Positions 28,598 to 29,200 of a stretch of DNA of 64,000 nt are shown here, piece after piece. Each line of letters opens with the position of its first letter. Position 1 is the stretch's first letter. The notes beneath the pieces were generated by a model. The model made no database searches, had not been told where the DNA came from, and worked only from the letters and a program-made list of their open reading frames with translations. The position numbers and the translations under genes were made by a program. Source of the DNA: the human T2T-CHM13v2.0 reference genome, Homo sapiens; assembly GCF_009914755.1 (NCBI RefSeq), contig NC_060930.1. The stretch is one strand, 5' to 3'.

Positions 28598-29200
28598 AAG
28601 GATCTTTCTTTACCCTGACAAATAGAGGCATTTATAACCTCCATGACAACAGCCTTGACCTTGGTTTATACCTGGACTCAGTCCTGGGCTCTGGGACATT
28701 CCACAGCCTGGGAAATGCACTCATTCATGGAGGGGGACTTGAGATGGGACACACAGGAACACATGGCTTTGGACATGGAGTGGGCCATGAGCTGAGCCAC
28801 AGCCATGGAGATGGCTGTGGAGTGAATCATGGTGGGCGTTATGGACTTGGAGGAGGCTACAGCAATAATCATGAAATGCATCACAGAGAAGGTCGCCAAG
28901 GCAAAGGAGAGTATAGACATAGACTGGATAATGGAAGGTGCTATGGAAAAGAAAATCTTGGGGAAGAAGGGGGATCATGGAGGAGAAGGTAGTGACCATA
29001 AAATGGGTCAGGATGGGCTTCTCTGAGGTCTCCAAGGGATTGGCCATAGAGATGGTCATGATCAAAATCAAGAAAAGAACCAGAGAAAAGAGCACAGAGG
29101 GTTTGGCCAACGGGACAGTCAGAAAAATAGGGAGTGGTTCTGGAGGAGACCTGCAGCCTCACCAGCTTTGGGTGTGAGCTCAAGTGAAAATATCCCCTGA
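28598..29200 (+). pseudogene. Mucin pseudogene cytoplasmic-tail exon (Gly/His-rich, ending WFWRRP...ENIP*)
   Basis: Acceptor cttttAG 28596-28597; [43 protein letters not shown]; frameshifts ~28615 and ~28970, TGA 29024-29026, terminal TGA 29198-29200. Confidence 0.85.

What the first reader, a model, noticed from the sequence alone, without database searches (positions are those of the whole stretch)
28598..29200. Fossil tail joins the MUC22 Gly/His region to the MUC21 C-terminal motif, suggesting the ancestral tail
Seen: the pseudo-exon ends WFWRRPAASPALGVSSSENIP* (29135-29200). This aligns without gaps, 21 residues to 21, with MUC21 [21 protein letters not shown] (38788-38853), and both end CCC TGA GCA. 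Its first half matches the recalled MUC22 tail, which I remember stopping at ...GHGGGH. Inference: the ancestral tail (~200 aa) carried both parts; MUC21 lost (or never expanded) the Gly/His middle and human MUC22 was truncated. WFWRRP is then a conserved, uncharacterised cytoplasmic motif.
Basis: partly seen in the sequence, partly recalled or inferred. Interest (0 to 1): 0.72.

Follow-up and report, generated by a model that had tools for sequence, protein, structure and literature searches.

The report
Dead MUC22 twin preserves lost tail
An unannotated broken copy of the human mucin gene MUC22 lies next to MUC21 and still spells a roughly 200-residue cell-interior tail ending in MUC21's WFWRRP motif, so human MUC22 likely lost over half of its tail and WFWRRP is a candidate functional site.

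Summary
Window 29135-29200 matches MUC21's last 22 codons without gaps (44/66 nt; next best in the scanned DNA 37/69 against 47/69). It is the last exon of a whole unannotated MUC22 paralogue (about 7.7-29.75 kb) with signal, Ser/Thr, transmembrane and tail exons, all broken. An unnamed non-human protein (P0010) reads through both internal tail lesions in one frame. So the MUC22/pseudogene ancestor likely had a ~198-codon tail with both parts, and human MUC22 was likely truncated. A second unannotated pseudogene, of MUC21 type, follows MUC22, pointing to an old two-gene block duplication with reciprocal loss. Not supported: that the long tail is ancestral for the whole family. The tree has no root, and MUC21's exon also aligns with the first 140 nt of MUC22's, which leans towards later expansion. 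WFWRxP is kept in 7 of 7 MUC21 orthologues, but no intact long tail bearing it was found. A real, modest evolutionary finding in a known family (PF14654).

The parts
7725..7793 (+). Signal-peptide exon of the pseudogene (psiA); TGA at codon 3, one base shorter than MUC22's 70-nt coding part
   Evidence: About 70% identity to MUC22 exon 61372-61441 and its flanks
14707..16913 (+). Ser/Thr-rich mucin exon, frameshifted; open stretches of 437 and 203 codons at 47% S/T. 5' boundary is a candidate acceptor only
   Evidence: Many matches to the MUC22 repeat exon; donor context shared with MUC22
17050..22500 (+). Broken endogenous retrovirus in the intron (limits approximate); no second LTR found by self-comparison
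   Evidence: Pfam RVT_1, RT_RNaseH_2, weak RNase_H and dUTPase in separate short frames; the class name ERV-L is recalled
22574..23182 (+). Tract 92.5% identical to the matching MUC22 stretch, against 70-86% elsewhere; likely gene conversion
23370..23746 (+). Stem and transmembrane exon; 21-nt deletion over the likely MUC22 acceptor, 1-nt deletions, in-frame stop, donor one base short
   Evidence: 86% identity to MUC22; PF14654 50.3 bits, cut-off 27
28598..28968 (+). Tail exon, Gly/His half (frame from 28600)
   Evidence: 70% aa identity to the MUC22 tail; PF14654 39.5 bits; dN/dS 0.52 over 81 codons
28969..29134 (+). Tail exon, charged middle (GH/QEKNQ), after a frameshift at a G run, with TGA at 29024-29026
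   Evidence: 58% aa identity to P0010, which is open across both lesions; collinear with the MUC22 3'UTR
29135..29200 (+). Terminal block WFWRRP...P-stop, homologous to the MUC21 C-terminus
29201..29750 (+). Former 3'UTR; follows MUC22, not MUC21
   Evidence: p 0.002 against MUC22, p 0.41 against MUC21; 29644-29743 matches the MUC22 3' region
38659..38853 (+). MUC21 tail exon, the comparator
   Evidence: annotation

Best explanation
The stretch is the broken last exon of an unannotated MUC22 paralogue, which likely arose when a two-gene block (one MUC22-type and one MUC21-type mucin) duplicated in tandem and each copy lost a different gene. Shown: four-exon MUC22-like anatomy with lesions, a MUC21-type pseudogene behind MUC22, and collinear homology of the two blocks. 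Inferred: the MUC22-type ancestor encoded a tail of about 198 residues (Gly/His half, charged middle, WFWRRP block); the living human MUC22 gained a stop after 88 tail residues and the rest decayed as UTR, while the dead twin kept a readable copy. Inferred, weaker (about 60:40): the family ancestor had a short MUC21-like tail and the long tail grew by internal duplication. Predicted, untested: WFWRRP is an aromatic-basic short motif that docks the disordered tail on the inner membrane leaflet or on one partner, and contributes to the tail-dependent signalling of MUC21. The human pseudogene itself likely makes no protein.
For: Anatomy and lesions. PF14654 matches in the genome: 8 of 9 lie in this cluster, at five loci. 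Block collinearity 33612-39637 with window-equivalent 95244-100421 at 59-70%. DNA tree pairs psiA with MUC22 (98/99) and psiB with MUC21 (96/95). MUC22 UTR against psiA 28871-29340: score 134, shuffle maximum 50 in 300. MUC22 reads GH*GHHGVDHRGSHQGGHG across its stop and QEKNQQKDLRDFDW in the UTR. P0010 is open across both psiA lesions and its best human match is psiA. First 17 nt of the block are 17/17 identical to MUC21, the other 46 coding nt 24/46 (Fisher p 0.0002, boundary chosen after looking). WFWRxP in 7 of 7 MUC21 orthologues.
Against: The MUC22 remnant alone is weak: p 0.051 against psiA, 0.17 against MUC21, and TGGAGG[AG]G occurs four times in each long tail. None of 7 unnamed relatives shows WFWRRP in frame; only P0010 reaches the place and it leaves the frame there. 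No named MUC22 orthologue was retrieved. Conversion has acted in this cluster. Three relatives share psiA's phase-1 start of the tail exon, which MUC22's phase-0 splicing does not explain. MUC21 tails are conserved throughout (70-84%), so orthologues alone do not single out WFWRRP.
Confidence: 0.72

Rival explanations
1. One reading: the long tail is ancestral for the whole family and MUC21 (with psiB) deleted the Gly/His middle. This changes only the direction of one step.
For: MUC21's tail matches the start and the end of psiA's tail with little between, as one deletion would give. Long-tail relatives exist in other genomes.
Against: No outgroup roots the two-against-two tree; no HCG22 tail exon was found to break the tie (4 queries, p 0.08-0.70). 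MUC21 38756-38812 aligns with MUC22 at the same exon offset (128 against 123), p 0.002 under codon shuffles, noticed after looking and not significant in psiA (p 0.12-0.31).
Confidence: 0.3
2. Chimera: psiA received its terminal 69 nt from MUC21 by gene conversion or unequal crossover, so the two parts never worked together in one protein.
For: Conversion between MUC22 and psiA left a 92.5% tract. Only the 69-nt block resembles MUC21; both flanks follow MUC22. The 17/17 run could be a micro-conversion.
Against: The block is only 67% identical to MUC21 (dS about 0.7 on 13 sites), as old as MUC21 against psiB (67%). MUC22 has a remnant at the collinear place. P0010's last residues match psiA's shifted frame over the block (p 0.017). 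The block is in frame with the middle that P0010 keeps open.
Confidence: 0.12
3. The long-tail paralogue died before the placental radiation; its preserved frame is chance and says little about a functional tail.
For: All 7 unnamed relatives are fragments, and P0012, P0013 and P0016 change frame. The phase-1 offset is shared with three of them and could be an ancient shared lesion. Pajic et al. found no MUC22 orthologue in mouse, cow or ferret (PMC9417175).
Against: P0010 stays open over about 140 codons at 52-58% identity. dN/dS against MUC22 is 0.52. A 437-codon S/T frame survives. Spacings from acceptor to the RGIY position differ among four copies by multiples of three (read).
Confidence: 0.12
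4. Chance resemblance produced by the CATGGAGGAG words of the Gly/His repeat read in another frame.
For: CATGG is enriched (11 in MUC22 against 2.2 expected) and gives W-R-R when shifted.
Against: The match runs ungapped over 69 nt to an aligned stop; no shuffle of 2000 reached it.
Confidence: 0.02

Closest known systems
MUC22 (PBMUCL1)
   Same: Exon order, signal exon, repeat style, TM exon (86% nt), Gly/His tail (70% aa), UTR
   Different: MUC22 is intact but stops after 88 tail residues; psiA is broken but readable to a WFWRRP block about 198 codons in, and carries a retroviral insertion
MUC21 (epiglycanin)
   Same: PF14654 TM and juxtamembrane region; last 21 codons, stop and following GCA
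   Different: 64-residue tail without the Gly/His expansion; TM region only 50% identical to psiA; UTR not alignable
Pfam PF14654 Epiglycanin_C
   Same: TM exon and first 49 tail residues score over the cut-off
   Different: The WFWRRP block of psiA gets no Pfam match, and MUC21's match covers tail residues 1-49 only
Duplicated (unprocessed) pseudogene with reciprocal gene loss after tandem block duplication (general concept, from my own knowledge)
   Same: Introns kept, collinear flanks, complementary survivors, patchy conversion
   Different: Here the dead copy preserves coding sequence that the living paralogue has turned into UTR
'MUC22-like' mucin said to be found in the T2T assembly (one sentence in PMC9417175)
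   Same: Name suggests a MUC22 paralogue
   Different: No coordinates in the passage; I could not tell whether it is this locus, LOC124901299 or another

Membership tests
PF14654 Epiglycanin_C mucins (MUC21/MUC22) | Profile match over the curated cut-off for TM and juxtamembrane tail | tested here: met
   50.3 and 39.5 bits, cut-off 27;
PF14654 Epiglycanin_C mucins (MUC21/MUC22) | Signal exon and Ser/Thr-rich ectodomain upstream | tested here: met
PF14654 Epiglycanin_C mucins (MUC21/MUC22) | Intact frame giving a membrane mucin | tested here: not met
   Stop at codon 3, frameshifts and stops in later exons
Duplicated (unprocessed) pseudogene | Keeps parent exon-intron layout and intronic homology | tested here: met
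Duplicated (unprocessed) pseudogene | Disabling lesions | tested here: met
Duplicated (unprocessed) pseudogene | No protein product; transcription status | not testable with these tools
   No expression data; RefSeq lists an enhancer at 6379-7061 just upstream of the signal exon
MUC21/MUC22 recombinant (chimera) | A switch point with MUC21-type sequence on one side throughout | tested here: not met
   Both flanks of the 69-nt block follow MUC22
Conserved short linear motif | Kept in orthologues | tested here: met
   WFWRRP in 5 of 7, WFWRxP in 7 of 7 MUC21 orthologues
Conserved short linear motif | Kept in frame in an intact paralogue | tested here: inconclusive
   Only in the broken psiA; 0 of 7 unnamed relatives, only one of which reaches the place
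Conserved short linear motif | Partner or function shown by mutation | not testable with these tools
   Whole-tail deletion abolishes apoptosis resistance (PMC9001685); no motif-level test seen

The most novel reading that the evidence does not exclude
Placental mammals had a third, long-tailed MHC mucin that is still intact in some lineages. Human MUC22 is a tail-truncated survivor that lost the family's signalling motif, and WFWRRP is the site through which MUC21's tail confers apoptosis resistance, making MUC21 and MUC22 signalling and non-signalling versions of one receptor-like mucin.
Probability: 0.22. Interest if true: 0.62.

Novelty: new member of a known kind. Interest (0 to 1): 0.38.

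Why it matters
MUC22 is called an orphan and was reported without orthologues in mouse, cow or ferret (PMC9417175, passages). These data place it in an old duplicated two-gene block, with two pseudogenes missing from the RefSeq table given for this region of the MHC. MUC21's tail is needed for apoptosis resistance by an unknown route (PMC9001685); the paralogue comparison narrows a 64-residue tail to a six-residue candidate for mutagenesis. A 600-nt tract 92% identical to MUC22 may also matter for read mapping in this disease-associated region (inference).

Tried and rejected
Homologue searches with the MUC22 tail and TM exon returned nothing at E 0.01 (77 and 2134 candidates); the tool calls this weak evidence. 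P0010 found no loci in prokaryote or viral contigs. The Atlas gave only unrelated single-pass membrane clusters for P0004 and did not hold two other queries. A mixed protein alignment misaligned tails onto the TM helix and was discarded. Two of the three global DNA alignments (those with MUC21) were not usable as whole-exon alignments. No HCG22 tail exon was detected. No LTR pair was found to date the retroviral insertion. No structure or complex prediction was run: the tail is low-complexity and no partner is known. The protein tree's psiA-type clade (84/92) is open and its bootstrap had not settled, so it is only a lead. LOC124901299 has an S/T stretch and a TM-like segment but no PF14654 match; not pursued. 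Literature: ten searches showed no paper describing either pseudogene; WFWRRP occurred in one paper, on HEMCAM (listing only). Hijikata 2011 and Yi 2010 were not held and may bear on novelty and on tail function.

Full report
Observation. The 66 nt at 29135-29200 match MUC21 38788-38853 at 44 positions without gaps, give 10 of 21 identical residues, and both end CCC TGA GCA. An ungapped scan of the window and five 10-kb flanking loci on both strands gave 47/69 here and 37 for the next best; WFW[RK] occurs only at these two places. The 5' half of the exon has one other match in the genome, the MUC22 last exon, at 81%. The two halves are in different frames, separated by a shift near 28969-28973 and a TGA at 29024.

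What it belongs to. With Alu masked, window 5-34 kb matches MUC22 in order: signal exon and flanks (7203-8216, about 70%), Ser/Thr exon (14.7-16.9 kb), TM region (22574-23752) and tail (28574-29743). Lesions: TGA at codon 3 and a one-base-short signal exon, frameshifts in the repeat exon, a 21-nt deletion over the likely TM acceptor, a stop and one-base deletions in the TM exon. A broken retrovirus with RT, RNase H and dUTPase remnants lies at about 17.05-22.5 kb (5 of 6 frames scanned had a Pfam match; the class name ERV-L is recalled). TM and tail pieces pass the PF14654 cut-off. The gene table supplied with the finding has no row for this gene (psiA).

How it arose. A genome search with PF14654 gave 9 matches, 8 in this cluster: psiA, MUC21, MUC22, HCG22 and a further locus near chr6:30,913,100 (below cut-off). 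That locus (psiB) has a MUC21-type TM exon, intron and tail exon, and MUC21's upstream region, exon 1 and 3' side align with it collinearly at 59-70%. The order psiA-MUC21 ... MUC22-psiB, with a tree pairing psiA with MUC22 (98/99) and psiB with MUC21 (96/95) on 132 columns, is what a tandem duplication of a two-gene block with reciprocal loss would leave (inference). A tract at 22574-23182 is 92.5% identical to MUC22, against 70-86% elsewhere, which I read as later gene conversion.

MUC22 stops after 88 tail codons, but the same frame continues GHHGVDHRGSHQGGHG and another UTR frame reads QEKNQQKDLRDFDW. psiA 28871-29340 aligns with the MUC22 UTR at score 134 against a shuffle maximum of 50. 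At the collinear place MUC22 has the first 16 nt of the motif with two mismatches and a one-base gap, next to deletions. Alone this remnant is weak (p 0.051 against psiA, 0.17 against MUC21), but it is bracketed by significant homology on both sides. After the psiA stop the sequence follows MUC22 (p 0.002) and not MUC21 (p 0.41), so psiA is not a simple recombinant.

Other species. The MUC21 tail retrieved 7 proteins out of 43 candidates, named from macaque, beaver, bat, mink, peccary, donkey and colugo; 5 have WFWRRP and all 7 WFWRxP. Searches with MUC22 pieces retrieved none. A profile of the two human long tails found 7 unnamed proteins among 1.84 billion. P0010 is open across both psiA tail lesions, 52-58% identical, and matches psiA best in the human genome; this supports the frame of about 198 codons. 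It does not show WFWRRP: it leaves the frame there, its last residues resembling psiA's shifted frame (p 0.017 in the best of three frames). The other six end earlier, and three change frame. So no intact long tail with the motif was seen. P0011, P0014 and P0015 share psiA's phase-1 reading at the acceptor, unlike MUC22's phase 0; this is unexplained, and phase-0 copies could not be read through, so the sample is biased.

Direction of change. Two short-tailed and two long-tailed genes give no root, and no HCG22 tail was found. MUC21's exon aligns collinearly with the first 140 nt of MUC22's, including a WFWRR-like DNA word at offset 128 against 123 with one extra base that shifts it into the Gly/His frame (p 0.004 over the whole exon, 0.002 under codon shuffles; not significant in psiA; noticed after looking). 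CATGG is enriched in the long tails. This leans to growth by internal duplication from a short exon, about 60:40 by my judgement.

The motif. Between psiA and MUC21 the first 17 nt are identical and the next 46 only 24/46 (p 0.0002, post hoc), as expected if WFWRRP was under constraint while psiA lived, though a micro-conversion cannot be excluded. Deleting the whole MUC21 tail removes apoptosis resistance in HEK293 and CHO cells (PMC9001685; passages and Discussion read). I predict an aromatic-basic docking motif; this rests on composition only.

Literature seen: PMC9417175 (passages and a supplement search: MUC22 scored in human and chimp, absent in mouse, cow, ferret; one sentence on a T2T 'MUC22-like'), PMC5411776, PMC7848197, PMC11199685, PMC13180836, PMC9578598 (passages). 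Ten searches showed no description of either pseudogene. The MUC22 cloning paper and the 2010 MUC21 adhesion paper could not be read, and other annotation sets were not checked, so prior notice is possible.

Verdict. Real and unannotated in the table given: a duplicated pseudogene of a known family that records a longer MUC22-type tail and a block duplication. The truncation of human MUC22 is well supported, the family-wide ancestral state is open, and the motif's function is untested. Interest 0.38.

Noticed in passing
L006 3800-6800 (G000:C6 about 30,910,800-30,913,800): Second unannotated mucin pseudogene, MUC21 type (psiB), between MUC22 and HCG22: exon-1 remnant without a clear ATG, short S/T exon with TM, MUC21-like intron and tail exon in which the WFWRRP codons are decayed
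   Followed up: partly
L007 7533-7652 (HCG22): HCG22 keeps a PF14654 TM remnant just over the cut-off, after a stop; no tail exon found downstream
   Followed up: partly
window 22574-23182 against L004 9013-10000: Likely conversion tract at 92.5% identity; it starts at a pyrimidine-CAG site and reads as decayed S/T/P-rich coding, perhaps a former longer stem exon. MUC22 carries an insertion of about 380 nt inside it, flanked by a short direct repeat
   Followed up: partly
window 17050-22500: Broken endogenous retrovirus with RT, RNase H and dUTPase remnants, largely missing from the list of longest masked stretches; no 5' LTR found
   Followed up: partly
window 14888-16198: 437-codon open frame at 47% Ser/Thr survives in the pseudogene's repeat exon
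   Followed up: no
window 34118-34167 and 60877-60926; 34034-34362 and L006 3014-3332: Upstream elements shared between MUC21 and MUC22 (88% over 50 nt) and between MUC21 and psiB; candidate common promoter elements
   Followed up: no
window 6379-7061: The RefSeq enhancer sits about 650 nt upstream of the pseudogene's signal exon and may be its old promoter region
   Followed up: no
L008 4680-5140 and 6710-7100 (LOC124901299): S/T-rich stretch and a TM-like segment resembling the family's; possibly a more distant mucin-like gene upstream of MUCL3
   Followed up: partly
window 28582-28600; P0011, P0014, P0015: Three unnamed relatives read L-E-G through the acceptor in the same phase as psiA, suggesting that this paralogue's tail exon was spliced in phase 1
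   Followed up: partly
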